Position numbers and translations under genes: made by a program
Shown here: one piece after another, positions 16,806-34,748 of the stretch
Layout of the letters: each line of letters begins with the position of its first letter
Numbering within the stretch: position 1 is the first letter of the stretch
Source: Escherichia phage vB_EcoM_Lh1B
Strand: one strand, 5' to 3'
DNA: 64,000 nucleotides
Sequence record: OK428535.1
The notes under the pieces: generated by a model
Databases searched by the model: none
Told to the model about the DNA's origin: nothing
Seen by the model: the letters and a program-made list of their open reading frames with translations, nothing else

Positions 16806-18659
16806 ATGGTAAAAATCGTTGACTCTAACAACAACGCTCAGCAGAACAACACTCAGACTCAAGACACCGCACCACTGGGCGGTCTGGGCAACGAGACTGT
16901 AAAAGTGCAAACTGCTGTGCCGGGTACTTCTACTGTCAGCCAATTCGATAACGCATTTGGCATCCGCAACATCAGCACCTATGCAATGCACTTCGTCAAC
17001 CTCCTGGACGAGCTGAAGAAAAGCAACGAATACCTCAACGCTTTCCGCTGGGGCACCATCGCCGGCGTGGGTAACGAAATGGGTTCCGCGGCGTATGTCG
17101 CAGGCCAATGGCAGGGCCACTGGCTGTATGGTATCATCTTCTTTGAACGCGGTCAGTCTCTGCGTCTGAAAGAAACTACCAACAACGGCCAGGAAGACTA
17201 CTACACCATCACTGAACTGTTCAACAAAGACGTGCTGGCAGTAGTACAGAAAAACATCATGGAAGCGCATGGTCTGACCAATGCGAACTTCATGATCATC
17301 AACTCCGTACCAGACCTGGGTAAAGTTCTGGATGCTGAGTGGGCACGTACTCTGATGGGTCAGATGATGATGGGCATCTTCGGTCGTATCGCAGGCTACC
17401 TGGGTACGCTGAACCTGCGTAAGCATGACCGTTATCAGGCTGCAGTAATGCCGCTGGAAGATGGTGCGGTTGTGGATGCTAACGGCCACGCACAACGTGC
17501 TGATTTCGCAATCACCGTTGAGCACAGCCCAAGCAACGTATCCGACGCCACTCCGACTCTGCTGGACACCAATCAGGTACAGGTGTATCCGCGTGTATCC
17601 GGTACTGGTTTCGTCAACATGCGTTTCACCGGTCAGAAGCCTGTCGTTAACGGCGTCTACGACCTGAAACAGCTGCAGGCTGAAATCGTAGTAAGTCTGG
17701 TCGATTCTCAAACTGAAGGTGCAATGGCACCGTATGAACGTCAACTGCTGCTGCTGGCTGCATTTGCAGAAATCGCGGCAATCGGTGGCTGGCGTGACCT
17801 GTTTGTGAAACGTCTGAACAAACAAGATCGCAAGTTCTCCCGTGTGGCAGAATACCTGTCCTGGGGTGCTGACGCTCGTCCTGATGTATCCAAAATCGAC
17901 GGTAGCCGTGAAGCTATCGAAGGTTGCCTGGATATGTTCGCACCGCGTGAAGCAGCACTGGTAGTTAGCCATCGTGCCGGTAACGGTCTGGGTGGTCTGT
18001 CTACTATGCTGTCTGAAATTGCGGTCGGTTACGACAACTCTCTGAAACAGCTGCTCGCTATTCTGAATTCCATGTCCCCGCGTGATCAGAACGGCGAAGT
18101 TGTTGCAGCGACCAGCTTCACTGCAGTATTTGCTTCTGCACTGAAAGCACAGCTGGGCGATGCCTTCAATGGTACCATCCATTGCAGCCACATCGTGAAA
18201 GCAGCCGTACCGACTGTTTCCGGTGTTTACACCGGTACTGCACAGAAACGTAGCTTCCAGGATATGGACCTGATTTCCGTTGTTACCAAACTGGGTGATA
18301 ACGCGAACGACGTCTATAGCTACCTGAACGCACAGTCCTACAGCCACCGTGAACTGAACGAGCGTCAACAGCGTATCTACATGCTGAAACTGGCCGCTTC
18401 TCTGTTCGCATCCAAAGCACCGCAAGCTACCGGTGAATCTCTGGATATGGCTATCAACCCGATCTTCGGTAAATGCCTGCTGGACTTCGTCCGTAACAAC
18501 TGCACCTGGTCTATGACTGGTGTAAATGCCTACAACACGATGGCGACCTCTCTGTTCTTCAACAACGGTGGGGAAGACTTCACGCTGTCTGGCAACGGCC
18601 TGTCTGCAAGCGGTTCCGATTTCGGTCTGGGCGTGTCTCTGAGCAACTTCAAACTGTAA
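16806..18659 (+). CDS. abundant early protein; candidate phage-nucleus shell (chimallin-like) or major structural protein
   Basis: 617-aa ORF with strongly E. coli-optimal codons (CTG, CGT, GGT, AAC, ATC, TTC), unlike neighbours; TAAGGAA site; two upstream promoter-like motifs; next to RNAP beta-prime-like gene. Confidence 0.7.
   Translation: MVKIVDSNNNAQQNNTQTQDTAPLGGLGNETVKVQTAVPGTSTVSQFDNAFGIRNISTYAMHFVNLLDELKKSNEYLNAFRWGTIAGVGNEMGSAAYVAGQWQGHWLYGIIFFERGQSLRLKETTNNGQEDYYTITELFNKDVLAVVQKNIMEAHGLTNANFMIINSVPDLGKVLDAEWARTLMGQMMMGIFGRIAGYLGTLNLRKHDRYQAAVMPLEDGAVVDANGHAQRADFAITVEHSPSNVSDATPTLLDTNQVQVYPRVSGTGFVNMRFTGQKPVVNGVYDLKQLQAEIVVSLVDSQTEGAMAPYERQLLLLAAFAEIAAIGGWRDLFVKRLNKQDRKFSRVAEYLSWGADARPDVSKIDGSREAIEGCLDMFAPREAALVVSHRAGNGLGGLSTMLSEIAVGYDNSLKQLLAILNSMSPRDQNGEVVAATSFTAVFASALKAQLGDAFNGTIHCSHIVKAAVPTVSGVYTGTAQKRSFQDMDLISVVTKLGDNANDVYSYLNAQSYSHRELNERQQRIYMLKLAASLFASKAPQATGESLDMAINPIFGKCLLDFVRNNCTWSMTGVNAYNTMATSLFFNNGGEDFTLSGNGLSASGSDFGLGVSLSNFKL
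17676..17733 (+). repeat. copy A of ~58-bp direct repeat (inside CDS 16806..18659)
   Basis: caggctgaaatcgtagtaagtctggtcgattctcaaactgaaggtgcaatggcaccg; about 90 percent identical to 18677..18732. Confidence 0.8.
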
Positions 18660-24461: not shown

Positions 24462-25115
24462 ATGATGATTAACCAAGAAATTTTCAAAGACAAATGGCTT
24501 TACCCGCAGACCGAACCGGATCAGCAAAACCGTACGCGTAAACTCAACATCGAACCGAATGATTTCAACGGCGATGTTGAAACTATGAAGTTTAGCTACT
24601 CCTTTGGTAAGGGCGAAGGTCTCTATTTCTCTGCGCCAATTACGGTTTGTCGTACCATTATCGAAGCTCTGCAGGATTGTCTGCGTAAGAGCGAAAAGAG
24701 TATGCTGAAGTTTACTAACGAAAACGGCAACAAACCGCCCGTTAGTCTGATTGTTGGCCGTGAAGACAACCTGGTACCGTTCATCGCTATTGCCGGTGAA
24801 ATCCAGGGCGTTGGTGCCCGCCAGAAGAAGTTCTACTTCTCCTACCCGAAAGGCTTCCGTATTTTCCGCGACGGTCAGCAGGTTTCTGATTTAGAACTTG
24901 CCGAGCGCTGCGCACGTGCGTTTATCACTAACTTCGAGAAGTTCTTACAGAACCTGGAAGAGAAATATAAGCCGCGTGAATTCCAGCAAGGGGGTGGTAG
25001 CTTCGGTCGTGGCGGATACGGCGGTGGCCAGGGTGGCGGTCAGCGTAGCGGCGGTTATCAACAGCAACAATCTGCACCTCCAGCAACCACTGATTCTTAC
25101 GACGAATTCCTCTAA
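24462..25115 (+). CDS. nucleic-acid-binding-like protein with Gly/Arg-rich tail (SSB-like, tentative)
   Basis: C-terminus QQGGGSFGRGGYGGGQGGGQRSGGYQQQQSAPP...DSYDEFL (Gly-rich linker, acidic/hydrophobic tip); optimal codon usage; start may instead be 24423. Confidence 0.5.
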   Translation: MMINQEIFKDKWLYPQTEPDQQNRTRKLNIEPNDFNGDVETMKFSYSFGKGEGLYFSAPITVCRTIIEALQDCLRKSEKSMLKFTNENGNKPPVSLIVGREDNLVPFIAIAGEIQGVGARQKKFYFSYPKGFRIFRDGQQVSDLELAERCARAFITNFEKFLQNLEEKYKPREFQQGGGSFGRGGYGGGQGGGQRSGGYQQQQSAPPATTDSYDEFL

Positions 25116-25250: not shown

Positions 25251-26885
25251 ATGAAAATTATGAAGATTAAAGACCGGATGACAATCGAGCATCATGGTCA
25301 AGAGGTCACATTTATTGGCTTACGTTATCGGAAGGATAACAACGCACCCGACTACATCACTGTTAAAGGTAAACAGATTGCACGCGACAACATTCTCTTC
25401 ATGGAATTACAACGCGTGTGGGATTATTTAACGCCAGACGAACAAGATGAACTGTTCATGGCGTATCTGATGCTGGACGAGCTGGCAAACGAATCGACGG
25501 AAACGCAGCGTAAGCACATGCCGAAGATTGTGCAGACGATTGCGAAGTTCCACAAGGCCGAAGTGTATCGTAAGCTGTATCCCATCGATAAGCTGTGGAT
25601 TCCGCAGAACATGGAAGATACGCACGATGAAATGAACAGTAATTATCCGGAAGCGATGACGTACATTCGTCCGGACTATTACGAGTTGTTGATACTGGTC
25701 CTGATGATTAAACCGTATATTCCGGTGTTCCTCACCATGGGGACGTTCCCGATAGGTAAGAACTTGCCAATCGAAACACATCGGAAAATGGTGTACAATC
25801 TGACATACTGTCTGGAGATGCTTCAAGACACAGAAGTCATGTCTTTACCTGCTATTCCGAAACTGCGTGGGTTCCTACAGACAGTGATGGAAAAGGTAGA
25901 AAAAGAACTGGCAAACAAAGGTACGAACAGCACCAGTTTGTCGGTACTAGCTACGGTGCGGGGCTATGGCACGGATATGATGGAAGATTATATCCTGGCG
26001 TATGCTATTATTAAATTGTTGGCTGTCCGTGAAGTCGGTGGTGAATTACCGGTTGAAATCATGGTTAACAACAATATCGTCACCGGCATGTATTTTCTGG
26101 TTAAACAAGAGATTGAAACAGGTTTTGCAAACAAAATCTCTAACCAGCCGGTGCTGTTAAAAGCGCATCCGGAAAGTGTGGTATTCAATGGCGAAAAGGG
26201 TAAGATAAACGCCATGGATTTGGTGCAGGCACGTTCTCCTGCACAGATGAAAGAATACGTCCGTACCGAGTACGTATTTAAAGAATACCGCTCTTTCTTG
26301 AAAACAATGCGTCTGGATAATGCCGCTCCAGCAGATGTTAAGTTATTGATTGATTCGCAACTGGCAACACATGACGGTCCTGTCTATACGTTGCACGAAT
26401 GGTTAGTCGCATTAGCACTCCATCGTAGCGTGCATTATAAGACGTATACTGAATGTGGACCAGAAGCGTTTCGCTACGGTATGGCGTTGGCACAGGCAAC
26501 TTATCTCAATTATGGAATGTATGACGTTGCGCAACTGTTAAGTTGCAATATGGTGCGTTCTGAGATGTCTGCCGGTTATGCAGCCGACCCAATTCGATCT
26601 GAACTCAAAGCAGATTTAGATAGATATTATCTTCAGGAGTATCGCAACCCGCGTAATCTCGAACCGCAATCTACACCACGGGAATCACTGACCTTGTTAC
26701 ACAAGGATCACATCAACCCGTATCTGTTCCATCTCAGGGCTACACCAGAAGCAGCTGCGCTGCTGAAGTGTGAGACGGATCAGCCAAACTATATACCTCA
26801 CTTGTCACTGCACAATAGCCTGGCGGAGTTTATGGTGTTGAATGCACGTCGCAAGTTAGAAGAAGTTGAATGGTTTAATTCTTAA
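25251..26885 (+). CDS. hypothetical protein
   Basis: 544-aa ORF; contains an intragenic promoter-like motif near its 3' end. Confidence 0.6.
   Translation: MKIMKIKDRMTIEHHGQEVTFIGLRYRKDNNAPDYITVKGKQIARDNILFMELQRVWDYLTPDEQDELFMAYLMLDELANESTETQRKHMPKIVQTIAKFHKAEVYRKLYPIDKLWIPQNMEDTHDEMNSNYPEAMTYIRPDYYELLILVLMIKPYIPVFLTMGTFPIGKNLPIETHRKMVYNLTYCLEMLQDTEVMSLPAIPKLRGFLQTVMEKVEKELANKGTNSTSLSVLATVRGYGTDMMEDYILAYAIIKLLAVREVGGELPVEIMVNNNIVTGMYFLVKQEIETGFANKISNQPVLLKAHPESVVFNGEKGKINAMDLVQARSPAQMKEYVRTEYVFKEYRSFLKTMRLDNAAPADVKLLIDSQLATHDGPVYTLHEWLVALALHRSVHYKTYTECGPEAFRYGMALAQATYLNYGMYDVAQLLSCNMVRSEMSAGYAADPIRSELKADLDRYYLQEYRNPRNLEPQSTPRESLTLLHKDHINPYLFHLRATPEAAALLKCETDQPNYIPHLSLHNSLAEFMVLNARRKLEEVEWFNS
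26617..26637 (+). promoter_or_regulatory. intragenic promoter-like motif TAGATAGATATTATCTTCAGG
   Basis: Motif family copy inside CDS 25251..26885, ~265 nt upstream of the next ATG. Confidence 0.4.
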
Positions 26886-26897
26886 GGAGTATTTAAA

Positions 26898-28598
26898 ATG
26901 CAGCTTGTAAATCTACTGATGTATCCGGTCTACGATGTTCCAGAGCAAGTTCGTCGCCGCATCGGCTTTAACGCATCGACGGGTGCACTGGATGACTTAG
27001 CAGCAGCGGTTGAACTGGGCGGGGAAAAAGCTGTGGGAACACAGCAGTATCAAGAAGCATTATCTGCCATCGTGGGCTTCGATGGCACCCAGAATGGTTT
27101 TGAGCGTCCATTCATCAACGTGTCCGATGATGACAATCGTCCTGTACAGTTCCAATGGGAATCACGTGATACCGGTATCTTTAACTTCGTGGCGGTGTTT
27201 ATTGCTAAACCTCTGAATGCAACACGCACTCAGGAAACGCAATACATCGTATCCGGTTATACCAGTCAGGCAGAAACCAGCCTGGGTAGCTTGCTGCCGG
27301 ACGATATGGTGTTGTACATTAACGACATCTACGGCTTACAGGCAACGTATACACACGATGCCCTGGGCGGCAAAACATTGAACCCAGACTCATTCCGTCT
27401 ACTGGATAACTACGTTTTATCGAAAGCGCTGTCTGTTGAAGGTCAAACAGAAAGTACGGTAGATATCATTTCGATCGCGAAAGCGGCGGATATGGTAAAA
27501 CGTATTGAAATGAATAGCGGTGAGAAGTTCGTCCCAACGAGCGACTCTGTGCTATCCGCAACCAGTAGCTCTGCACCACAGTTGATGGTATCCCAACTCC
27601 AGCGTCCAGAAAACTACGTATCTGCCATCAGTAATGCGTATCTGGCAAGCTCTGGGGTAGATACCGAACTCGGTAGCGTGGAAAGCTTCTTTGCAGGTAA
27701 TAACTCCATCGGCGTTGAATCTGAATTGAAGCAACGTGGTGTTATCCGTAACTACAGCAACCACGAACTGATTGCTGCGATGCGTCAAGCACTCCAGAAC
27801 GGGATGTCTGATGTATCTGGCGGCTGGAAAGCAACCAGTAAGGCGACGTTCCGTTTGGCTGATTTGCGTAATGCGATTGTCAACCCAATGCGGTTGGATG
27901 AATGTATCCGTGAATCGCTGGCGCTGGCAAGTCGCCGTGGGTTGGGTGCAGGGCTGGTTAACCAAACCGACCACTGGATTGGACGTAATGGCTTCTCCAC
28001 GCAGGGTAGTCTAGTTGCGTATGATCTGGCTATGTCTATCGGGCCGATTATGTCACGTAACCTGATTGGTGAAGTGAGCTTTGTCTTTGATAACCGCAAC
28101 ACAGATATCATGATAGAGCCTACGCTGGAAGTTATTCCTAACTCAGTCAGCAGCATCACGCACCATCAGTTACCTGCTGCATTAGGTCGTCGTTTCTTGC
28201 AGAACATGAAAGAAGCGATGGTTCAGGTTACTAAACATAACCATATTCGCTGCCACATGCTGGTCACCGCATTGTTGGGGACCGTTACTCGTATTGAAAT
28301 CCGTGTCGACGACGAACCGCTGGAATATTACACCTACGCGTCGTTTATGCAATTCCGTCTCCATACCGGCAACACCACCGATCTCAAATACGTTGGTGAG
28401 CTGGCACAGAACACCGCAACGCTGTTGAAAGCCGTGGAAGAAGGTTATACAGAATTCGAGAAAGGCCAAGGCCGGGGTCGAATGCTATCTAACATTCCAA
28501 CTAACACAGGTGGCTTAGATCCTCTTGGAGGTCTTGACCTGGGTGGTGGCTTAGCCGGTTTAGGCGGAAACGGACTCGGCAACGGTCTCATTGATTAA
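26898..28598 (+). CDS. hypothetical protein with Gly/Leu-rich C-terminal tail
   Basis: 566-aa ORF behind CTTAAGGAGTATTTAAAATG; tail GGLDPLGGLDLGGGLAGLGGNGLGNGLID. Confidence 0.6.
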   Translation: MQLVNLLMYPVYDVPEQVRRRIGFNASTGALDDLAAAVELGGEKAVGTQQYQEALSAIVGFDGTQNGFERPFINVSDDDNRPVQFQWESRDTGIFNFVAVFIAKPLNATRTQETQYIVSGYTSQAETSLGSLLPDDMVLYINDIYGLQATYTHDALGGKTLNPDSFRLLDNYVLSKALSVEGQTESTVDIISIAKAADMVKRIEMNSGEKFVPTSDSVLSATSSSAPQLMVSQLQRPENYVSAISNAYLASSGVDTELGSVESFFAGNNSIGVESELKQRGVIRNYSNHELIAAMRQALQNGMSDVSGGWKATSKATFRLADLRNAIVNPMRLDECIRESLALASRRGLGAGLVNQTDHWIGRNGFSTQGSLVAYDLAMSIGPIMSRNLIGEVSFVFDNRNTDIMIEPTLEVIPNSVSSITHHQLPAALGRRFLQNMKEAMVQVTKHNHIRCHMLVTALLGTVTRIEIRVDDEPLEYYTYASFMQFRLHTGNTTDLKYVGELAQNTATLLKAVEEGYTEFEKGQGRGRMLSNIPTNTGGLDPLGGLDLGGGLAGLGGNGLGNGLID

Positions 28599-28610
28599 GG
28601 ATTATTAACC

Positions 28611-29978
28611 ATGAAATTGATTGAATTCTACCGTTCGTTTCTGACCTCGCTCGGATACGGATTCGAAGGTGACATGCTGACTATCGATGATGGTCATCCG
28701 GCAATGTTCACCTACAACAAAGTGAAGCGCCGCTTGGTGCTTCCAACTGCAGCGATGATTAAGCGTGGGTTGGAAGATGACGAAGGTAGTGAATGTCATG
28801 CGTTCCACCCGCTGTGTGAATCGGTGCTGGCTGGCGAATCTGGAACGATTCGTTTCCTGAAGAAAGCCATCAACGCGAACCTCTTCCTGAAAAGCTTCGA
28901 GTTAATCGATGCGATTTTGGAAACAGCAGCCGAAGGAAAAAATATCCGTCTGGCAGCGTACAAGAAGTTTTTAAGCGATGTGGTTTGTGCTGACCTGAAA
29001 GATCCAACGATGGATAAGAAACTGGTTCAGAGCTGGCACGCAGTGAAGAACTACGTTTACGGGTTGCTGGAAGAAGATAAAAAGACAAAGATCACCAGTA
29101 TCTTCATCTCCAGCGATATGACCATTGAAGGTATCAAATATATCCGTGTGGCGAACTACAAACACATGTTTGAAGAAGAGTCACTGGATGGTACGGCAAC
29201 ATTCTTCGGTGCCAAGCTCCAGCGTAAGCAGGATAAGGTCATTATCTTTAACCTGCTAACTGCAGTGTTTGGTTGGTATCCTTCGGTTACTGGTTCTAAC
29301 GATCCGCGTCCGTACTTCGGTTCTTTGGCACGCGGTTGGGCACAATACGTGACCAACTACAATCAAGTGGTTCGTGGTCTGCGTGACCACACTCCACTGC
29401 GTCCGTTAGAAGAAGAATGGATTGGCCAACTGGATAACATGAGCGTTTATGATAACGTTATCCAAACTCTGCCGTATAATACCGGCCCACGCACCGATCA
29501 GGCAACAGACACCACCGCAACGGATTTCCGTATCGGGCGTACACCTGCCGGCACAAAGCCGGTCGTTGCTTTAGCTTCTCAACAAGCTCCGCAGGAAAAT
29601 CTTGATCTCAACGATCCGGTAAACTATTTCCGTGCGAAGAAAGCGCAACAGGCGTCTTCAGCTAATAGCTTCAATGCGTTAGCACCGAAGATTCAGGAAG
29701 CGCTGCGTGAGAACAACGGCCATTTACCGAAAGGGACAATTAAAGAACTGTCTCTCGGTGAAGCGCTGCGTGGTAATGCGGTGACGAAAGAAAGTGGTCT
29801 GGGTTCTGGTTTGCTGGTAAGTAGTAATAATCTCTTGGGGGGTAGCACGCAGTTGGGCGGCGGTAGCACCAACCTCTTAGGAGGGAGTAGTGACGTGTTA
29901 GGTGGTCTGGGTGGTTTAGGTGGCGGAAGTAGCAGCAGTTTAGGCAACCTACCATTCTCATCAGCTAATTTACGTTAA
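28611..29978 (+). CDS. hypothetical protein with Gly/Ser-rich C-terminal tail
   Basis: 455-aa ORF; tail LGGSTQLGGGSTNLLGGSSDVLGGLGGLGGGSSSSLGNL. Confidence 0.6.
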   Translation: MKLIEFYRSFLTSLGYGFEGDMLTIDDGHPAMFTYNKVKRRLVLPTAAMIKRGLEDDEGSECHAFHPLCESVLAGESGTIRFLKKAINANLFLKSFELIDAILETAAEGKNIRLAAYKKFLSDVVCADLKDPTMDKKLVQSWHAVKNYVYGLLEEDKKTKITSIFISSDMTIEGIKYIRVANYKHMFEEESLDGTATFFGAKLQRKQDKVIIFNLLTAVFGWYPSVTGSNDPRPYFGSLARGWAQYVTNYNQVVRGLRDHTPLRPLEEEWIGQLDNMSVYDNVIQTLPYNTGPRTDQATDTTATDFRIGRTPAGTKPVVALASQQAPQENLDLNDPVNYFRAKKAQQASSANSFNALAPKIQEALRENNGHLPKGTIKELSLGEALRGNAVTKESGLGSGLLVSSNNLLGGSTQLGGGSTNLLGGSSDVLGGLGGLGGGSSSSLGNLPFSSANLR

Positions 29979-29985
29979 GCGTTAG

Positions 29986-30015
29986 AAAGAAGGGACTGGG
30001 CGTCCCTTCTTTTTT
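29986..30015. terminator. bidirectional terminator
   Basis: Hairpin GAAGGGAC-TGGG-CGTCCCTTC with A-run before and T-run after. Confidence 0.65.
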
Positions 30016-30339
30016 TCAAGATTCTACGATAGTCGATAAGATGTTACTTACCACACCGACACTAGGAACCAATAAGGTCCTTATCTCTGGCGTGAAATCA
30101 AACGGAGTAGAAATTCCGTTCATTAACATCATCGGATAAATAATACTATTATCGTACTGTTTGAGACGACAGTACGCGTAGAAACTGTGTACCTCTGGGT
30201 AGGCATATTTTGGGTCAACAACTTCTTCTGTAGTATCTGGGTGTTTGCGAAGGAAGTCTGTATAGTCATGCAACACCTTATACTTGGTCGAATCAGGCGA
30301 AGGTATCATTTCGGATAAGGTAGCAAATTTATCTAGCAT
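30016..30339 (-). CDS. hypothetical protein
   Basis: 107-aa minus-strand ORF, AAGGAGAG upstream. Confidence 0.5.
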   Translation of the reverse strand: MLDKFATLSEMIPSPDSTKYKVLHDYTDFLRKHPDTTEEVVDPKYAYPEVHSFYAYCRLKQYDNSIIYPMMLMNGISTPFDFTPEIRTLLVPSVGVVSNILSTIVES

Positions 30340-30405: not shown

Positions 30406-32643
30406 ATGAAAACACCAGTCGAACTCATGTCAAGCGTTGCTGACCGTGAGGTGAATATCACTGGCGTATCTGGGGCACGTGCCTCAATGGTGGGTGGACA
30501 TATGAAGTCGGCGGTACCACTGGACAATCCAGATCCGACTATCCATTTTACCGGCGCTGATGTGAACTACCACGATTATTGTTTTAACGATATCGTGGAA
30601 GACAGTGGTACCGTGTGCAGTTACACAACCAAAGAAGGTGTTACTCGTGCAGCTGTTTTTGCACGCTATGGTCGTGAAGGGGATCACGATCCGCTCCAAC
30701 ATGTTATCTTCTTCACGCGCGCAGATTTAACCAACCAGCGCAAAGTGATGATTGATGTAATCGATATCAAGTATTACACCAACCACGATAACATTTTCTC
30801 GTCTAAGAAAGAGGCTACTGGGAAACTTCAGGCGTTGCTGCGCGGGCAGACTCAGCACCTGGAAAAAGATGAAATGCTTACCGTGCTGCCGGCACAGAAA
30901 GACGGTGAGTTTGTCGATGGGGTCAACCTGCACACCGTGACAATGTCGCACCCGGACATTATCGAGGACTCGTACACCATCTCCGAAACTGCAGCGAAGG
31001 CGATGCACGCTTATGGTTTGCGTGCAATTGACTTTACCCTCCGTGACGACGAGTACCTGCTTGACACGTATGGGACAACGGGTATTGATGGCGTTCGTCG
31101 ACCACAGTACCTACCCAATAAAGGACAGGCAATTCGTGATGATGGGTTGGTTATTGCCGCGCGCCGTTTCGATAAGCTATGGGCAGCCATTGACTCGCAC
31201 GTAGGTGAAACACAACATATCTCTCCGCACTTCGACCGTTGTGAGTATGTTGATGCTGACCCTGAGCATTACAAAGCGCGTCAGGCTGGCGACTTTGAAA
31301 AGATGGAACGTACTGGTTCTCGTGTCGTTGATATTCAGGTATGGCGGGACGAAACCAAATGCGATCGTGGTGTTAACAATATCGCATGTACCGAAGAGAA
31401 CAAACGCGAGTTAGATCACTACGCGAACGCTTTGAAACGTTTTTACAATGATATCGTGCGGTTCTATTTTGCGATGTCCAAGGACAAGAATATTGTCTGG
31501 TCACCGAAAGCGTTTGAGATTCTTGACAAGGCGTTCTGTTCTGAGACGTATGAAGTCTATAACGACTTCCGTGAAGAGATTGGTCGTGAATACGATGAAG
31601 CCATGCGTAAAGGTGAGTATAACCGTTCTGCTGATAAGAACGTGTTGAACAAACTGGCGCAGCCGGTTCAGCGTGGTCTCTGGGACCCAATTGGTAGCTA
31701 CACGATACGCATCGTGGTACGTTATCCAATCCCAGTTACCGTCTCATCGAAAATCACCGACCGTTCAGGTACAAAAGGTATCGTGGGCGCAGTGCGGCCT
31801 GATGAAGAAATGCCGATTAACGAGTTCGGAGAACGTGTGCATGTCATTCGTTCCATGAACGCCGTAATTCGTCGTTCGACTTATGCTGCGCTGTTCCACA
31901 TGTATTGGTCTGCTGCATCCGAGCAGTTGAAGATGCGGTTGAAACCATTACTTGCTGCCAACCAGGTTGATGAAGCCTGGGAAATCCTGATGGACTATAT
32001 CGATCGCTATAACCCACGCTGGACATTCTATCTCAATGCCAGTCACCCAGATACTGAGTCACGTCTGGAACTCTTTAAAGAGATTTACGACTTCACGATT
32101 CGTATCTGGCTTCCCCACGAATTGAATGCCACCCAGGTAGAAATCTGCCGTGCTCTAGGCGAGTATGCACCACGCAAGTCTAAGCTACTGATTACTAACT
32201 ATCAGGGTGAGAAAGAGTGGACGAAGAACCAGTTCTACGTCGGCATGGTAGAGACTCTGCGCCTGGATAAAACCGGTCGTGAGTTCTCCAGTATCTCATC
32301 GATGTACACGAACTATTTGGGTTGTATTGATGCATCCAACCAAGGACGTGGTTCATATCCGATTAACCTGAAAGGGTTGAAGTGGGGTGGTCCTTCCGAG
32401 CAGCGTCTTACCGACGGCTTTGGTCCGGGCAACTTCCCCGAAACTCATGACCGCGCTAATAACCCTGCGGTACACCGTGCGATCGTAACGGGGTTGTATA
32501 ACTCGCCAACACCAACCAATCCGGGGGTGCTGGTCGATCGTAAGAAACTGCCAATGGGAGATTCGCAGATTGACAGGATGATACGTAACATCCATCGCTG
32601 TGAAGGTTTTGAATTAGTGCGTCCAATTCGGGAGGATAAATAA
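30406..32643 (+). CDS. multisubunit RNA polymerase beta-like subunit (C-terminal portion)
   Basis: KITDRSGTKGIVGAVRPDEEMPINEFGERVHVI...SMNAV parallels beta [33 protein letters not shown]...SRMNIG. Confidence 0.7.
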   Translation: MKTPVELMSSVADREVNITGVSGARASMVGGHMKSAVPLDNPDPTIHFTGADVNYHDYCFNDIVEDSGTVCSYTTKEGVTRAAVFARYGREGDHDPLQHVIFFTRADLTNQRKVMIDVIDIKYYTNHDNIFSSKKEATGKLQALLRGQTQHLEKDEMLTVLPAQKDGEFVDGVNLHTVTMSHPDIIEDSYTISETAAKAMHAYGLRAIDFTLRDDEYLLDTYGTTGIDGVRRPQYLPNKGQAIRDDGLVIAARRFDKLWAAIDSHVGETQHISPHFDRCEYVDADPEHYKARQAGDFEKMERTGSRVVDIQVWRDETKCDRGVNNIACTEENKRELDHYANALKRFYNDIVRFYFAMSKDKNIVWSPKAFEILDKAFCSETYEVYNDFREEIGREYDEAMRKGEYNRSADKNVLNKLAQPVQRGLWDPIGSYTIRIVVRYPIPVTVSSKITDRSGTKGIVGAVRPDEEMPINEFGERVHVIRSMNAVIRRSTYAALFHMYWSAASEQLKMRLKPLLAANQVDEAWEILMDYIDRYNPRWTFYLNASHPDTESRLELFKEIYDFTIRIWLPHELNATQVEICRALGEYAPRKSKLLITNYQGEKEWTKNQFYVGMVETLRLDKTGREFSSISSMYTNYLGCIDASNQGRGSYPINLKGLKWGGPSEQRLTDGFGPGNFPETHDRANNPAVHRAIVTGLYNSPTPTNPGVLVDRKKLPMGDSQIDRMIRNIHRCEGFELVRPIREDK

Positions 32644-34748
32644 TGGCGGGTCGTTCTGTACACGTGCGTGATTTGCGTATGCTTAACTCTGATCAGGTGT
32701 GGAAACTACGCGGGCGTTATTACGTGACATTCGACGATGGTAAGTCGTTGGAAATGTCTAGTCGCCACATCAAACTCAGCTGGCCGTATTGGGGTGTGTC
32801 GCGTCTGTATCCGCAGGTGCCCACTCCATCGACCATGGCGTATCGTCCAGGTCAGGTAGCAACAGATGACCTGCATCTGGACTTTATGTCGGAAGCAGCG
32901 GTACTGGCCCGTAAAGCAGGTGTCGACCTTGCTGAAACGCGTTATATCCTGAGTCAACATGTCTACGCCGATGCGTTCAACATGACAGTGAAGAACTTGC
33001 TGTCGTATTGTACGACAATCGACTTTGACACGATGATGGAGATCTACGACCACCCGAACTTCGAACTCATCCGTCAGTGGGAAGTGCAATACCCTACTGG
33101 CTACGATGAAGATGGTCAGGATATGGTTGAAGAAGCGTACAAGCTTATCGAGAAAATCTTCAAAGACCCTGCGCTACGGTATAACCCGGTCGTGATGTCG
33201 GTACTGGACGGTACTGTGAAGATGAACCAGGTACTGCAAGCCTTCGTGCGTGGTAAAACGTCAGAAATTGACTCACGTGTATACACCAATCAGGTGTGGG
33301 AAGGCTTCTTTACCGGAATGCACTCGGTTATTTCGCGTTTGAAAGAATCCGGTGCAACATCACGTTCCCACTTGTACAACACTGACAAGATTGCCGAAGC
33401 AGAATACGCCTCACGTAAACTGCAGCTGGCAGCAAACGTACTGATGTATTTCACGTACGACGACTGCGGTACAACTCACGCACACCGCTACACGTTTAAG
33501 GATACGCAGCTGGATGAGCGTGCCTATAAAGCGATGGTGGGGATGCGTTATCGTTTAGAAGGCGATAATGGTCCGTGGTTGAGATTTGAGAAAGGTGGAT
33601 ACGCAGACCTGGTTGGTAAACCGCTGGTCTTCCGTAGTGCAATGACCTGTAAAGAGATGGCGAATCAGTCCATCTGTGCGACCTGCATGGGGGATTTGAT
33701 TTATAACCTCTCTGAAGGCACGTCACCGGGTCACCTGGCATCCACTTCCATCTCAGAAAAGGGTACACAGGGAATTCTCTCCACCAAGCACCTTGACTTC
33801 TTGCGTTATCTGCTCAACCTGGTACTCACGCCGAGAATGCGTGAGTACATGACCGAATACAAACATAACTCTCTGAAAGGGTTGTGCTTGCTACCAAAAC
33901 CACAGCGTGGTAATTGGTCAGAATACGAGTTGGTCGTTACCGACAAAGTTTATTCGGAGCTGAGCCAGATTGCGTATCATGAAGATCTCGATGCAATCGA
34001 TGAAACAGCATTGCCGGAAATCACCGACTTGACATTCCAGCGTCGTTTAGAAGATGGGCAAATCATCGCTGCAGATTCTATCGATGTGCGAATGGGTGTT
34101 TGTGGGAACTTCTCTAAACCGTTCTTGCATTACTTCTTGAAACAACGTGCGAACATTCGTATCGAGAAGAAGACGGTTCAGATTCCTTTGAAAGGATGGA
34201 ACCCGAAACACCCGGTACTGGTCTACACCAACCGTTCTGAATCGATGGCAGAATTCGTGGCAGGGTTAGAAACCAAGCTACGTTCAATCGCAGCCGATAA
34301 GAACGAAGACATTGTGGAAATCATCAACACAGCCTCGACTGTGAAGTTGAACAAGAAACAAGGTCGTGTGAAACCGGTAACGTTGGTTGAAATGGGTGGT
34401 GCTACAGAGAAACAGTGTACTTATGCGTTGATGGATACGTTTAAGTACATCCAGCGTAAGCTGAGCGGTATACCGATGACGCACATTGCGATTATGTTGG
34501 CGATATCTCGTGTAGAGTCACCAACCAATCCGTTCCCGGCAGTAGGATTTGACAGTGAGGATTCTACTAATGCCACCGGGAAACGGTTTGTCGATCACAA
34601 CACGCTCATTAGTTTGCGCTCGGCAATTCCGATGTTGTTGTTTGAAGGACAGCAGGGGAATATCGATCGCGTTGGTTTTTATACCGAGTACAAAATCCCG
34701 GCATCGTTGTACGATGACCTAGGAGCCGCTGTGGTAATTGAGTTGTAA
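32643..34748 (+). CDS. multisubunit RNA polymerase beta-prime-like subunit (C-terminal portion)
   Basis: CATCMGDL (cf. CAHCYGRDL) and trigger-loop-like TSISEKGTQGILSTKH (cf. QSIGEPGTQLTMRTFH); TAATG coupling to beta-like gene. Confidence 0.65.
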   Translation: MAGRSVHVRDLRMLNSDQVWKLRGRYYVTFDDGKSLEMSSRHIKLSWPYWGVSRLYPQVPTPSTMAYRPGQVATDDLHLDFMSEAAVLARKAGVDLAETRYILSQHVYADAFNMTVKNLLSYCTTIDFDTMMEIYDHPNFELIRQWEVQYPTGYDEDGQDMVEEAYKLIEKIFKDPALRYNPVVMSVLDGTVKMNQVLQAFVRGKTSEIDSRVYTNQVWEGFFTGMHSVISRLKESGATSRSHLYNTDKIAEAEYASRKLQLAANVLMYFTYDDCGTTHAHRYTFKDTQLDERAYKAMVGMRYRLEGDNGPWLRFEKGGYADLVGKPLVFRSAMTCKEMANQSICATCMGDLIYNLSEGTSPGHLASTSISEKGTQGILSTKHLDFLRYLLNLVLTPRMREYMTEYKHNSLKGLCLLPKPQRGNWSEYELVVTDKVYSELSQIAYHEDLDAIDETALPEITDLTFQRRLEDGQIIAADSIDVRMGVCGNFSKPFLHYFLKQRANIRIEKKTVQIPLKGWNPKHPVLVYTNRSESMAEFVAGLETKLRSIAADKNEDIVEIINTASTVKLNKKQGRVKPVTLVEMGGATEKQCTYALMDTFKYIQRKLSGIPMTHIAIMLAISRVESPTNPFPAVGFDSEDSTNATGKRFVDHNTLISLRSAIPMLLFEGQQGNIDRVGFYTEYKIPASLYDDLGAAVVIEL

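What the first reader, a model, noticed from the sequence alone, without database searches (positions are those of the whole stretch)
26898..29978. Two consecutive large proteins ending in Gly-rich flexible tails
ORFs 26898..28598 and 28611..29978 both end in ~30-45 residues of (L)GG(S/L)-type repeats, with no other obvious similarity between them. Together with the RGG/Gly-rich tail of ORF 24462..25115 this makes three Gly-tailed proteins within 6 kb. Such tails may mediate nucleic-acid binding, phase separation or partner docking; in a nucleus-forming phage they could relate to compartment targeting.
Basis: inference. Interest (0 to 1): 0.5.

Follow-up and report, generated by a model that had tools for sequence, protein, structure and literature searches.

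The report
Disordered tails on phage-nucleus shell proteins
The two genes encode the jumbo-phage 'nucleus' protein-import factor PicA/Imp1 and its uncharacterised shell-associated neighbour (phiKZ gp70 family). Their floppy glycine-leucine tails are real and change type in step with each other from phage to phage, which suggests the two tails work together at the shell of the phage nucleus.

Summary
The window is an SPN3US-like Salmonella jumbo phage. ORF 26898-28598 is the ortholog of phiKZ gp69 (PicA/Imp1, the essential phage-nucleus import factor). ORF 28611-29978 is the ortholog of phiKZ gp70 / PhiPA3 gp64, a nuclear-shell-associated protein of unknown function. ORF 24462-25115 is ChmC/Imp6, whose tail is already known to drive RNA condensates. 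These are the only three Gly-rich stretches among 100 ORFs in the window.

Both tails are predicted disordered (pLDDT about 30) and evolve about twice as fast as the folded parts. The new result is that the PicA and gp70 tails co-vary in chemistry across 20 clades: LGG/LGG here, FG/FG in two metagenomic relatives, GNSLLD/GNSLLD in one Erwinia-phage clade, and R/D-rich in both in pVa-21 (permutation p about 5e-5). ChmC tails do not co-vary, and the two tails share no DNA repeats.

The most likely role is clade-specific sticky extensions that hold PicA and gp70 together at the shell. This is inferred, not shown. An FG-nucleoporin-like barrier is possible but weakly supported: the tails are short, PicA lacks a tail in Goslar-like phages, and FG motifs are not enriched family-wide. 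Gene identity is known biology; the tail co-variation appears unreported.

The parts
26898..28598 (+). PicA/Imp1 ortholog (566 aa; = SPN3US gp31), the phage-nucleus protein import factor
28491..28595 (+). PicA C-terminal low-complexity tail (residues 532-566): uncharged-to-acidic G/L repeats ending in GLID
   Evidence: Composition is and pLDDT is 32-41. Identity to homologs averages 0.29, against 0.54 for the body.
28611..29978 (+). Ortholog of phiKZ gp70 / PhiPA3 gp64 / Goslar gp173 (455 aa; = SPN3US gp32), a phage-nuclear-shell-associated protein of unknown function
   Evidence: This ORF hits phrog_3520 at E = 2.1e-134; phiKZ gp70 hits it at 2.4e-127. BLASTP against phiKZ gp70 gives 6e-13. 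Synteny is conserved. The family has 1519 representatives at 50% clustering.
28611..29486 (+). gp70-family folded N-terminal domain (residues 1-292)
29487..29768 (+). gp70-family linker (residues 293-386): mostly disordered, with moderately predicted helices
   Evidence: pLDDT is 30-72, with helices at 336-352 and 359-367 and a short one at 382-386. Identity to homologs is 0.26.
29769..29975 (+). gp70-family C-terminal low-complexity tail (residues 387-455): about six (L)LGG(S/G)xx units and a tip reading LPFSSANLR
   Evidence: Composition and repeat units are. pLDDT is about 30. There is a weak 9-bp DNA period at 29899-29923. No DNA repeat is shared with the PicA tail.
24462..25115 (+). ChmC/Imp6 ortholog (217 aa; = SPN3US gp29). 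Its tail (residues 172-217, nt 24975-25112) is RGG/YGG-rich with the acidic tip SYDEFL.
   Evidence: This ORF hits phrog_3284 at E = 5.8e-65; phiKZ gp67 hits it at 6.1e-80. The tail architecture is conserved in all 20 phage loci compared. Its function in PhiPA3 is described.
25251..26885 (+). Ortholog of phiKZ gp68 (non-virion RNA polymerase subunit). Context gene between ChmC and PicA.
   Evidence: Both this ORF and phiKZ gp68 hit phrog_3209.
16806..18659 (+). Probable ChmA (nuclear shell protein; = SPN3US gp22). Its disordered N-tail contains PLGGLGN and its C-tail is G/L/S-rich.
   Evidence: Its position between the DNA polymerase and the nvRNAP beta gene matches phiKZ gp54. hhalign against phiKZ-like ChmA gives E = 1.1e-4 over 420 columns.
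29986..30016 (.). An 11-bp hairpin followed by a T-run directly after the gp70-like stop codon, between convergent genes. Probable operon end.
   Evidence: Read directly from the sequence. The consensus scan did not list it.

Best explanation
IDENTITY (shown by homology and synteny). The window carries the conserved chimallivirus 'nuclear-shell' gene block: ChmC/Imp6, then the nvRNAP subunit (gp68-like), then PicA/Imp1, then a gp70-like gene. [quoted passage not shown] ChmC is a Whirly-fold RNA binder that also binds PicA. gp70/gp64 localises to the shell (PhiPA3) or nucleus (phiKZ) and has no known function.

THE TAILS (inferred). The PicA and gp70-like C-termini are intrinsically disordered 'sticker-and-spacer' extensions. 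Gly/Ser/Asn spacers carry regularly spaced Leu stickers. They evolve fast, but in parallel in the two proteins, so that each phage lineage has its own shared tail 'dialect' (LGG, FG, GNSLLD, R/D-rich, and others). I infer that they mediate weak, multivalent, like-with-like contacts. These contacts would co-assemble PicA and gp70 at the shell, at the single import punctum, possibly with the similarly flavoured disordered termini of ChmA. I see them as an accessory avidity or organisation device, not as the import machine itself.

The ChmC tail is a separate, conserved class: an RGG/N-G region plus an acidic tip, with RNA condensation shown in PhiPA3.
For: Identity:
- ORF1 and ORF2 hit the same PHROG families as phiKZ gp69 and gp70, as do the ChmC-like and gp68-like ORFs for gp67 and gp68.
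- BLASTP of ORF2 against gp70 gives 6e-13.
- Gene order is identical in 20 phage loci plus two metagenomic contigs.
- Roles of the homologs come from the literature.
- In phiKZ Tn-seq supplementary tables (meaning of the columns inferred from position), PHIKZ068 and PHIKZ069 show zeros and PHIKZ070 a single site with 3 reads in one file; a second file shows some for all three.

Disorder: pLDDT is about 30 in both tails.

Fast evolution: tail identity is 0.29 and 0.25, against 0.54 and 0.60 for the bodies.

Retention: all 149 gp70 representatives examined carry a long polar-rich C-terminal region. Median length after residue 300 is 154 aa, 55% G/S/T/N/Q/P. Tail entropy is 3.31 bits against 4.09 for the N-domain.

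Co-variation across 20 clades (PicA bodies <= 62% identical), same-genome PicA tail against gp70 tail:
- Composition cosine is 0.718 against 0.585 +/- 0.028 for permuted pairings (p = 5e-5).
- Shared 3-mers are 2.30 against 1.11 (p = 2.5e-4).
- C-terminal tip score gives p = 0.003.
- The composition and 3-mer signals hold separately within the SPN3US supergroup and within the other 12 clades.

Concrete cases:
- FG repeats in both proteins on contigs L022 and L023.
- GNSLLD in both in one Erwinia-phage clade (Huxley, Caitlin and relatives), R/D-rich tails in both in pVa-21, and matching tips FNY/FNY, FNF/FSF, LGLL/LGLI and LGLV/LGLV.

Specificity control: ChmC tails from the same genomes do not co-vary with either tail (p = 0.89 and 0.46), and the PicA-gp70 signal survives removal of Gly.

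Not DNA homogenisation: no repeat is shared between the two tail-coding regions, and codon use is mixed.

ChmA termini share the dialect in 9 genomes (p = 0.0004 to 0.03). For example, PLGGLG here corresponds to PSFGGVG in the FG clade.
Against: - No experiment bears on these two tails.
- PicA has no tail in Goslar, Ea35-70, Eowyn or Proteus phage 10, and PicA is essential in Goslar. The tail therefore cannot be required for import in general.
- phiKZ gp70 did not co-purify with Imp1 from E. coli, although weak tail contacts could escape a pull-down.
- phiKZ gp70 is listed as intranuclear rather than shell-bound.
- The permutation tests do not correct for phylogeny. The ChmA comparison rests on 9 genomes in two groups.
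- Within the SPN3US supergroup the tip match is not significant (p = 0.62).
- In the window's tails, Leu-next-to-Gly is no more frequent than composition predicts.
Confidence: 0.5

Rival explanations
1. Tether plus shared docking motif. The low-complexity part is only a flexible leash. The functional element is the extreme C-terminal tip, a short linear motif that PicA and gp70 both insert into the same receptor site (a ChmA groove, ChmB or another shell protein). This anchors both proteins to the lattice.
For: The tips match within genomes: c16610 TFNY/SFNY, c239534 SFNF/GFSF, Phabio LGLL/LGLI, PA1C LGLV/LGLV. The tip score gives p = 0.003 overall and p = 1.5e-4 in the 12 non-supergroup clades. 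ChmA itself assembles by inserting N- and C-terminal segments into neighbouring protomers. PhiPA3 gp63 and gp64 came down together in ChmB pull-downs.
Against: In this window's clade the tips differ (GLID against ANLR), and the tip test is not significant in the supergroup (p = 0.62). Order-specific similarity of either tail to the ChmA C-terminus is not above shuffles: 3 of 18 comparisons reach p < 0.05 and none survives correction. This model does not explain why whole-tail composition co-varies.
Confidence: 0.22
2. FG-nucleoporin analogue. The hydrophobic-glycine tails of many PicA and gp70 copies (with ChmA termini) form a small cohesive mesh at the import site. The mesh acts as a selective barrier or solvent for licensed cargo, as FG domains do in nuclear pores.
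For: Both proteins carry true FG repeats with uncharged S/T/N/G/Q spacers in L022 and L023. GLFG/SLFG/MFG arrays occur in gp70 relatives: P0079, P0082, P0083 (a perfect 10-residue MFGAPQQ(A/T)S(N/S) repeat), P0091 and Phabio gp106. The tails here are nearly uncharged. PicA forms a single punctum where a stalled, transport-defective cargo colocalises. How proteins physically cross the shell is an acknowledged open question.
Against: The tails are short (35 and 69 aa, 8-14 stickers). The stickers here are Leu, not Phe. Family-wide, FG is barely enriched: 0.50 against 0.34 per 100 aa, and only 10 of 149 representatives have >= 4 FG. In 29 of 149 the tail is highly charged. PicA lacks a tail in several clades. 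Published genetics places cargo selectivity on folded PicA surfaces.
Confidence: 0.13
3. Functionally neutral low-complexity drift. The tails are tolerated spacers or entropic bristles that expand and contract by slippage. The resemblance between them reflects shared mutational bias or gene conversion between neighbouring genes.
For: Sequence turnover is very fast. Flavours are diverse. There is a weak 9-bp DNA period in the gp70 tail. The PicA tail is dispensable in some clades.
Against: The two tail-coding regions share no DNA repeat and their codon use is mixed. ChmC tails in the same genomes do not follow the dialect. A long tail is retained in all 149 gp70 representatives. L-to-F switches occur in both proteins in both F-type lineages: the L022/L023 clade and Derbicusvirus.
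Confidence: 0.1
4. Nucleic-acid-binding tails. This is the first reader's option, extending the RGG logic of the third protein to ORF1 and ORF2.
For: The neighbouring ChmC tail promotes RNA condensates. The gp70 and PicA tails of pVa-21 and DT01 are Arg-rich.
Against: In this phage the PicA tail has no R or K and is net acidic. The gp70 tail has 2 R and 1 K in 69 residues and one aromatic residue. The R/D-rich variants are charge-balanced rather than basic.
Confidence: 0.05

Closest known systems
PicA / Imp1 (phiKZ gp69, PhiPA3 gp63, Goslar gp174)
   Same: Same PHROG family with full-length matches. Same position between the gp68-like nvRNAP subunit and the gp70-like gene. Similar length. The predicted fold has no PDB relatives, as published for phiKZ PicA.
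   Different: Pairwise BLASTP to phiKZ gp69 is not significant. This clade has a 35-residue G/L tail. phiKZ has a Q/N/P-rich tail and Goslar has none. Import function has not been tested in SPN3US-like phages.
phiKZ gp70 / PhiPA3 gp64 (shell-associated, function unknown)
   Same: Homologous N-terminal domain with ten invariant residues. Always followed by a long low-complexity C-terminal region. Always the next gene after PicA.
   Different: The tail chemistry differs: L/G/S here, M/Q/P/G in phiKZ, FG-type in Phabio and some metagenomic relatives, R/D-rich in pVa-21 and DT01.
ChmC / Imp6 (PhiPA3 gp61, phiKZ gp67)
   Same: The third Gly-tailed ORF is its ortholog. The tail has the published layout: a G/N-rich region followed by an acidic S/D/E tip.
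   Different: This tail belongs to a different class from the two tails in the finding. It is conserved in kind in every clade and does not co-vary with them.
FG nucleoporins (GLFG/SxFG domains of Nup98, Nup100, Nup116, Nup49/57)
   Same: Disordered and nearly uncharged, with G/S/T/N/Q spacers and evenly spaced single hydrophobic stickers next to Gly. The proteins sit at the gate of a genome-containing compartment. Relatives carry literal FG, GLFG and SLFG repeats. Properties of FG nucleoporins are from my own knowledge.
   Different: The tails are ten-fold shorter. The stickers here are Leu, not Phe. No transport receptors are known. FG is not a family-wide feature. There is no homology. Neither 'chimalli*' nor 'phage nucleus' co-occurs with 'nucleoporin*' in any relevant paper of the searchable library.
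Elastin-like / abductin-like hydrophobic-glycine elastomeric repeats
   Same: GGL, GLGG and (in phiKZ) MGG-type composition, typical of self-associating disordered polymers. This is from my own knowledge and was not tested.
   Different: Those are extracellular structural proteins with far longer repeat arrays. The comparison is of physical chemistry only.

Membership tests
PicA/Imp1 family | Sequence-profile membership in the same family as phiKZ gp69 | tested here: met
   phrog_3141: window ORF 6.6e-157 (residues 1-535), phiKZ gp69 2.7e-179. Direct BLASTP is not significant.
PicA/Imp1 family | Conserved position in the ChmC - gp68 - PicA - gp70 - nvRNAP beta/beta' block of ChmA-encoding phages | tested here: met
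   A ChmA-like gene lies upstream.
PicA/Imp1 family | Localises as a punctum on the nuclear shell and is required for selective protein import | not testable with these tools
   Known only for phiKZ, PhiPA3 and Goslar.
phiKZ gp70 / PhiPA3 gp64 family | Homologous N-terminal domain | tested here: met
   BLASTP 6e-13. phrog_3520 in both. Ten invariant residues across 17 diverse members. BFVD fold matches only to uncharacterised phage proteins; every named one is from a jumbo phage.
phiKZ gp70 / PhiPA3 gp64 family | Folded N-domain followed by a long low-complexity C-terminal region | tested here: met
   pLDDT profile. 149 representatives with median 154 residues after position 300 and low entropy.
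phiKZ gp70 / PhiPA3 gp64 family | Association with the phage nuclear shell | not testable with these tools
   PhiPA3 gp64 localises to the shell. phiKZ gp70 is listed as nuclear.
ChmC/Imp6 family (for ORF 24462-25115) | Profile membership with phiKZ gp67, and a G/N-rich disordered tail with an acidic tip | tested here: met
   phrog_3284 at 5.8e-65 and 6.1e-80. Tails compared. The Whirly fold was not modelled here.
FG-nucleoporin-like repeat domain | Repeated Phe-Gly motifs | tested here: not met
   The window tails have 0 and 1 aromatic residues, and the stickers are Leu. The feature is met in relatives L022, L023, P0079, P0082, P0083, P0091 and Phabio.
FG-nucleoporin-like repeat domain | Uncharged polar spacers; intrinsically disordered | tested here: met
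   3 of 35 and 5 of 69 residues are charged. G/S/N/T dominate. pLDDT is about 30.
FG-nucleoporin-like repeat domain | Long arrays (hundreds of residues, tens of motifs) | tested here: not met
   The tails are 35 and 69 residues with about 8 and 14 Leu.
FG-nucleoporin-like repeat domain | Forms a cohesive selective phase and binds transport factors | not testable with these tools
   Needs purified tails and in vivo mutants.
RGG-type nucleic-acid-binding tail (for ORF1 and ORF2) | Arg-Gly(-Gly) motifs, usually with aromatic residues | tested here: not met
   The PicA tail has no Arg. The gp70 tail has 2 Arg, neither in an RGG motif. The feature is met only by the ChmC-like ORF.

The most novel reading that the evidence does not exclude
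The co-evolving hydrophobic-glycine tails of PicA/Imp1 and gp70, together with the like-flavoured disordered termini of ChmA, form a small cohesive FG-nucleoporin-like mesh at the import punctum of the phage nucleus. The mesh contributes to its selective permeability. That would be a convergent, virus-built analogue of the nuclear-pore barrier, with lineage-specific sticker 'dialects' (L, F, M) that might also insulate co-infecting phages from one another.
Probability: 0.13. Interest if true: 0.85.

Novelty: new member of a known kind. Interest (0 to 1): 0.48.

Why it matters
How folded proteins, and even a >300 kDa RNA polymerase, cross the protein shell of the phage nucleus is an open question stated in the field's own papers. 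Published work on PicA/Imp1 concerns its folded surfaces. In the PicA and Imp1 papers I searched for 'disordered', 'glycine' and C-terminal terms, I found no discussion of the tails of PicA or gp70.

This analysis shows that the import factor and its uncharacterised, apparently near-essential neighbour carry disordered tails that switch chemistry together, while ChmC's tail does not. That gives gp70 a first functional link to PicA. It also gives a cheap set of experiments: tail deletions, sticker mutants and dialect swaps. If the tails prove irrelevant, the result is still a correct annotation of three 'hypothetical proteins' in SPN3US-like phages that are candidates for therapy.

Tried and rejected
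1. Pfam: no family for either ORF.
3. ChmA C-terminal-segment mimicry by the tails: local alignment against shuffled tails is not significant after correction. Rejected as a general explanation.
4. Gene conversion or slippage homogenising the two tails: no shared DNA repeats and only a weak 9-bp period in one tail. Rejected.
5. Genome-wide bias affecting all disordered regions: rejected by the ChmC control.
6. Leu-next-to-Gly patterning beyond composition: not significant.
7. FG enrichment across the gp70 family: not found. This lowers the nucleoporin reading.
8. A third homolog search with a diverse alignment added only two sequences.
9. Literature: I found no paper naming a function for phiKZ gp70, PhiPA3 gp64 or Goslar gp173. 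None links phage-nucleus proteins to nucleoporin-like repeats. One search for structural work on PicA was swamped by unrelated hits.
10. SPN3US virion paper: gp29-gp32 are not mentioned in the main text. This is only weak evidence that they are non-virion.
Full report
WHAT THE WINDOW IS. Megablast of 26898-29978 finds 24 records that cover at least 80% of the query. The closest are 98.6-99.6% identical Salmonella/Escherichia/Proteus jumbo phages of the SPN3US group (Seoulvirus), where the two ORFs are SPN3US_0031 and _0032, both 'hypothetical protein'. Split multisubunit RNA polymerase genes follow at 30406-34748.

CHECK OF THE OBSERVATION. Both ORFs are present as described.
- The 566-aa protein ends in NIPTNTGGLDPLGGLDLGGGLAGLGGNGLGNGLID. 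This stretch is 37% G and 23% L, against 7.5% G in the body (P about 8e-7).
- The 455-aa protein ends in a 69-residue stretch that is 28% G, 20% L and 20% S, with about six imperfect (L)LGG(S/G)xx units (P about 1e-7).
- ORF 24462-25115 ends in an RGG/YGG-rich stretch with an acidic tip.
- Of 100 ORFs of at least 100 aa on both strands of the window, only these three have >= 9 Gly in 30 residues.
- The folded parts of the two proteins are unrelated.
- AlphaFold2 with family alignments gives confident bodies (PicA-like 1-531; gp70-like 1-290 mostly above 90) and pLDDT of about 30-41 for residues 532-566 and 387-455.
The second tail is longer than stated.

WHAT THE GENES ARE. The PHROG profiles place each window ORF in the same family as a phiKZ protein, with near full-length matches:
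- ORF1 with phiKZ gp69 (phrog_3141).
- ORF2 with gp70 (phrog_3520; BLASTP also gives 6e-13).
- The RGG ORF with gp67 (phrog_3284).
- The ORF between them with gp68 (phrog_3209).
The order SbcD - gp66 - gp67 - gp68 - gp69 - gp70 - small reverse gene - RNAP beta - beta' is the same in phiKZ, Goslar, pVa-21, Ea35-70, Eowyn, RTH11, Noxifer, Psa21, Phabio, PA1C, DT01, Proteus phage 10 and seven Erwinia/Cronobacter phages.

What is known about these proteins, from the literature:
[quoted passage not shown] It forms a punctum on the shell.
- gp67 is ChmC/Imp6, a Whirly-fold RNA binder. It binds Imp1 with 2:1 stoichiometry, and its N/G-rich disordered C-terminus is required for condensate formation with RNA.
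- gp68 is an nvRNAP subunit.
- gp70 has no known function. Its PhiPA3 homolog gp64 localises to the nuclear shell together with gp61 and gp63, and is expressed early.
- phiKZ gp70 is listed among nuclear proteins and did not co-purify with Imp1 from E. coli.
- In phiKZ Tn-seq supplementary tables (meaning of the columns inferred from position), PHIKZ070 shows one site with 3 reads in one file, where gp68 and gp69 show zeros; a second file shows some for all three.
- I found no paper naming a function for this family.
So the three Gly-tailed proteins within 5.5 kb are exactly the three conserved shell-associated proteins of the phage nucleus.

ARE THE TAILS CONSERVED? They are conserved as a feature but not as sequence.
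- Identity to the window averages 0.54 (PicA body) against 0.29 (tail). For gp70 it is 0.60 (N-domain) against 0.26 (linker) and 0.25 (tail).
- All 149 gp70 representatives examined keep a long C-terminal region. Its median length after residue 300 is 154 aa, its entropy is low (3.31 against 4.09 bits), and it is 55% G/S/T/N/Q/P.
- The flavour of that region varies: L/G, F/G, NPF, M/Q/P, Q-rich, or R/D-rich (29 of 149 exceed 25% charged).
- PicA has a G/L, FG, GNSLLD or GF-type tail in the SPN3US supergroup and a Q/N/P-rich tail in phiKZ-like phages. It has none in Goslar, Ea35-70, Eowyn or Proteus phage 10.
- ChmC tails are the same kind everywhere: G/N/Q/R/Y followed by an acidic-aromatic tip.

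THE NEW RESULT: THE PicA AND gp70 TAILS CO-VARY. Within a genome the two unrelated proteins carry the same tail 'dialect':
- LGG in both here and in Erskinevirus.
- True FG repeats in both on two metagenomic contigs. PicA reads ...SFGSFGSFGAP...GGVFGAFGE; gp70 reads ...SGFGDVGGFGQ...SFGGGSSFGGSSFGSQPQFGSSSGFGSS....
- GNSLLD in both in one Erwinia-phage clade (Huxley, Caitlin and relatives).
- GF/NPF types in Derbicusvirus.
- R/D-rich tails in both in pVa-21.
- Matching tips such as TFNY/SFNY, SFNF/GFSF, LGLL/LGLI and LGLV/LGLV.

Statistics, using one genome per clade (20 clades, PicA bodies <= 62% identical), same-genome pairs against permuted pairings:
- Composition cosine 0.718 against 0.585 +/- 0.028 (p = 5e-5).
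- Shared 3-mers 2.30 against 1.11 (p = 2.5e-4).
- Tip similarity p = 0.003.
- The composition and 3-mer signals hold separately in the 8 supergroup clades (p = 0.03 and 0.006) and in the other 12 (p = 0.002 and 0.01).
- The tip signal comes only from the latter group (p = 1.5e-4, against 0.62 in the supergroup).

Controls:
- ChmC tails of the same genomes do not co-vary with either tail (p = 0.89 and 0.46), and the PicA-gp70 signal survives removal of Gly. This is therefore not a genome-wide bias on disordered regions.
- The two tail-coding regions share no DNA repeat and use mixed Gly and Leu codons. It is therefore not recent gene conversion or slippage.

ChmA. The 617-aa ORF 16806-18659 sits where phiKZ gp54 sits and aligns to phiKZ-like ChmA by hhalign (E = 1.1e-4, 420 columns). 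Its disordered N-tail contains PLGGLGN. The FG-clade counterpart has PSFGGVG...AFGG. Over 9 genomes the ChmA termini share composition and 3-mers with the PicA+gp70 tails of the same phage (p = 0.0004 to 0.03). This is suggestive only, because the 9 genomes fall into two groups. Order-specific mimicry of the ChmA C-terminal segments, which mediate lattice assembly, is not supported.

HOW IT MOST LIKELY WORKS.
Shown: gene identity by homology and synteny, disorder by prediction, retention, fast turnover, and specific co-variation.
Inferred: the tails are sticker-and-spacer extensions that make weak, multivalent, like-with-like contacts. These contacts would help PicA and gp70 (and perhaps ChmA termini) co-assemble at the shell. 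Their role would be accessory, because PicA is essential in Goslar, whose PicA has no tail, and because cargo selectivity maps to folded PicA surfaces.

Rivals:
- A leash ending in a shared docking motif. The tip matches support it, but the whole-tail co-variation and this clade's non-matching tips count against it.
- An FG-nucleoporin-like selective mesh. It is attractive because relatives carry literal FG, GLFG, SLFG and MFG arrays. It is weakened by short length, Leu stickers here, no family-wide FG enrichment (0.50 against 0.34 per 100 aa; 10 of 149 with >= 4 FG), and charged variants.
- Neutral drift. Retention and the ChmC control count against it.
- Nucleic-acid binding. The tails have no RGG motifs and almost no basic or aromatic residues.

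COMPARISON WITH WHAT IS KNOWN, AND NOVELTY. The genes are members of known families (PicA/Imp1, the gp70/gp64 family, ChmC/Imp6). The PicA paper states that picA is conserved in all ChmA-encoding phages, so the identity is not new. A disordered, condensate-forming tail is published for ChmC only. In the PicA and Imp1 papers I searched for 'disordered', 'glycine' and C-terminal terms, I found nothing on the tails of PicA or gp70. In the searchable library no paper holds both 'chimalli*' and 'nucleoporin*', and only two unrelated ones hold 'phage nucleus' and 'nucleoporin*'. About 1.4 million manuscripts are not searchable, so absence is not proof.

VERDICT. This is a real feature on correctly identifiable, known proteins. 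The added value is the PicA-gp70 tail co-variation and its FG-type variants, which give a testable link between the import factor and its uncharacterised neighbour. Interest is moderate (0.48). The nucleoporin-like reading gets about 0.13 probability.

Noticed in passing
window 24975-25112 (ChmC-like tail); L006:3549-4259; L008:1-819; L014:3512-4285; L003:3160-3900: ChmC/Imp6 orthologs end in an acidic-aromatic tip that resembles the bacterial SSB C-terminal tip. Proteus phage 10 ends in KDFDDDIPF, whose last eight residues match the E. coli SSB end as I remember it. Others end in SDDDIPM, FDDDVPL and FDEDMPSF, and this window's ends in SYDEFL. Combined with a Gly-rich linker, this looks like an SSB-style tail that could recruit SSB-interacting host enzymes or bind PicA.
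   Followed up: no
window 16806-18659: The 617-aa protein (= SPN3US gp22) is probably the shell protein ChmA, by position and by hhalign (E = 1.1e-4). An SPN3US head-assembly paper found gp22 highly abundant in prohead preparations and proposed it as a scaffold or core protein (PMC7411985). Co-purifying shell lattice would be an alternative explanation. Laughlin et al. name 'gp244' as the SPN3US chimallin, so the gene numbering needs reconciling.
   Followed up: partly
Phage records LR535901-LR535917 (SPFM1, 5-10, 12, 14, 15, 20); proteins P0029, P0030, P0033, P0034, P0063-P0065, P0074, P0075: Several SPFM Salmonella-phage records carry scrambled versions of both proteins. tblastn finds the query in 2-8 shuffled pieces, and the deposited proteins are mosaics of short segments. 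These look like assembly or record artefacts, not biology.
   Followed up: no
L003:7250-7327 (phiKZ); L021:7501-7635 (CR5): The RefSeq start of phiKZ gp70 seems to be 26 codons too short. The upstream ATG yields an N-terminus that aligns with the family, and the PA_ZH1 annotation uses the longer form. CR5_033 may be truncated in the same way: the tblastn match to the window protein begins 135 nt upstream of its annotated start.
   Followed up: partly
window 29986-30016: An 11-bp GC-containing hairpin with a T-run lies directly after the gp70-like stop codon, between convergent genes. It is read from the sequence; the consensus scan did not list it. It is probably the end of the ChmC-to-gp70 transcription unit.
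   Followed up: no
window 30016-30339 (minus strand): A small 107-aa minus-strand gene (phrog_3455, unknown function) sits between the gp70-like gene and nvRNAP beta in nearly every chimallivirus locus fetched. Its conserved opposite orientation inside an otherwise co-directional block is unexplained.
   Followed up: no
L005:5933-8721 (Vibrio phage pVa-21); L014:5989-8886 (DT01): In pVa-21 the PicA and gp70 tails are both extremely Arg/Asp-rich (18 of 40 and 43 of 60 residues charged). In DT01 the gp70 tail is also strongly charged (27 of 60) and the PicA tail moderately so (11 of 40). This is a quite different physical chemistry from the hydrophobic-glycine tails, yet it is shared between the two proteins.
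   Followed up: partly
P0083, P0082, P0079, P0091 (gp70-family representatives); L012:7372-8706 (Phabio gp106): Some gp70 relatives carry very regular FG-type arrays, for example MFGAPQQ(A/T)S(N/S) repeated five times, SMFGNN repeats, and GLFG/SLFG motifs. Their genomic context, and the PicA tails that go with them, could not be fetched.
   Followed up: partly
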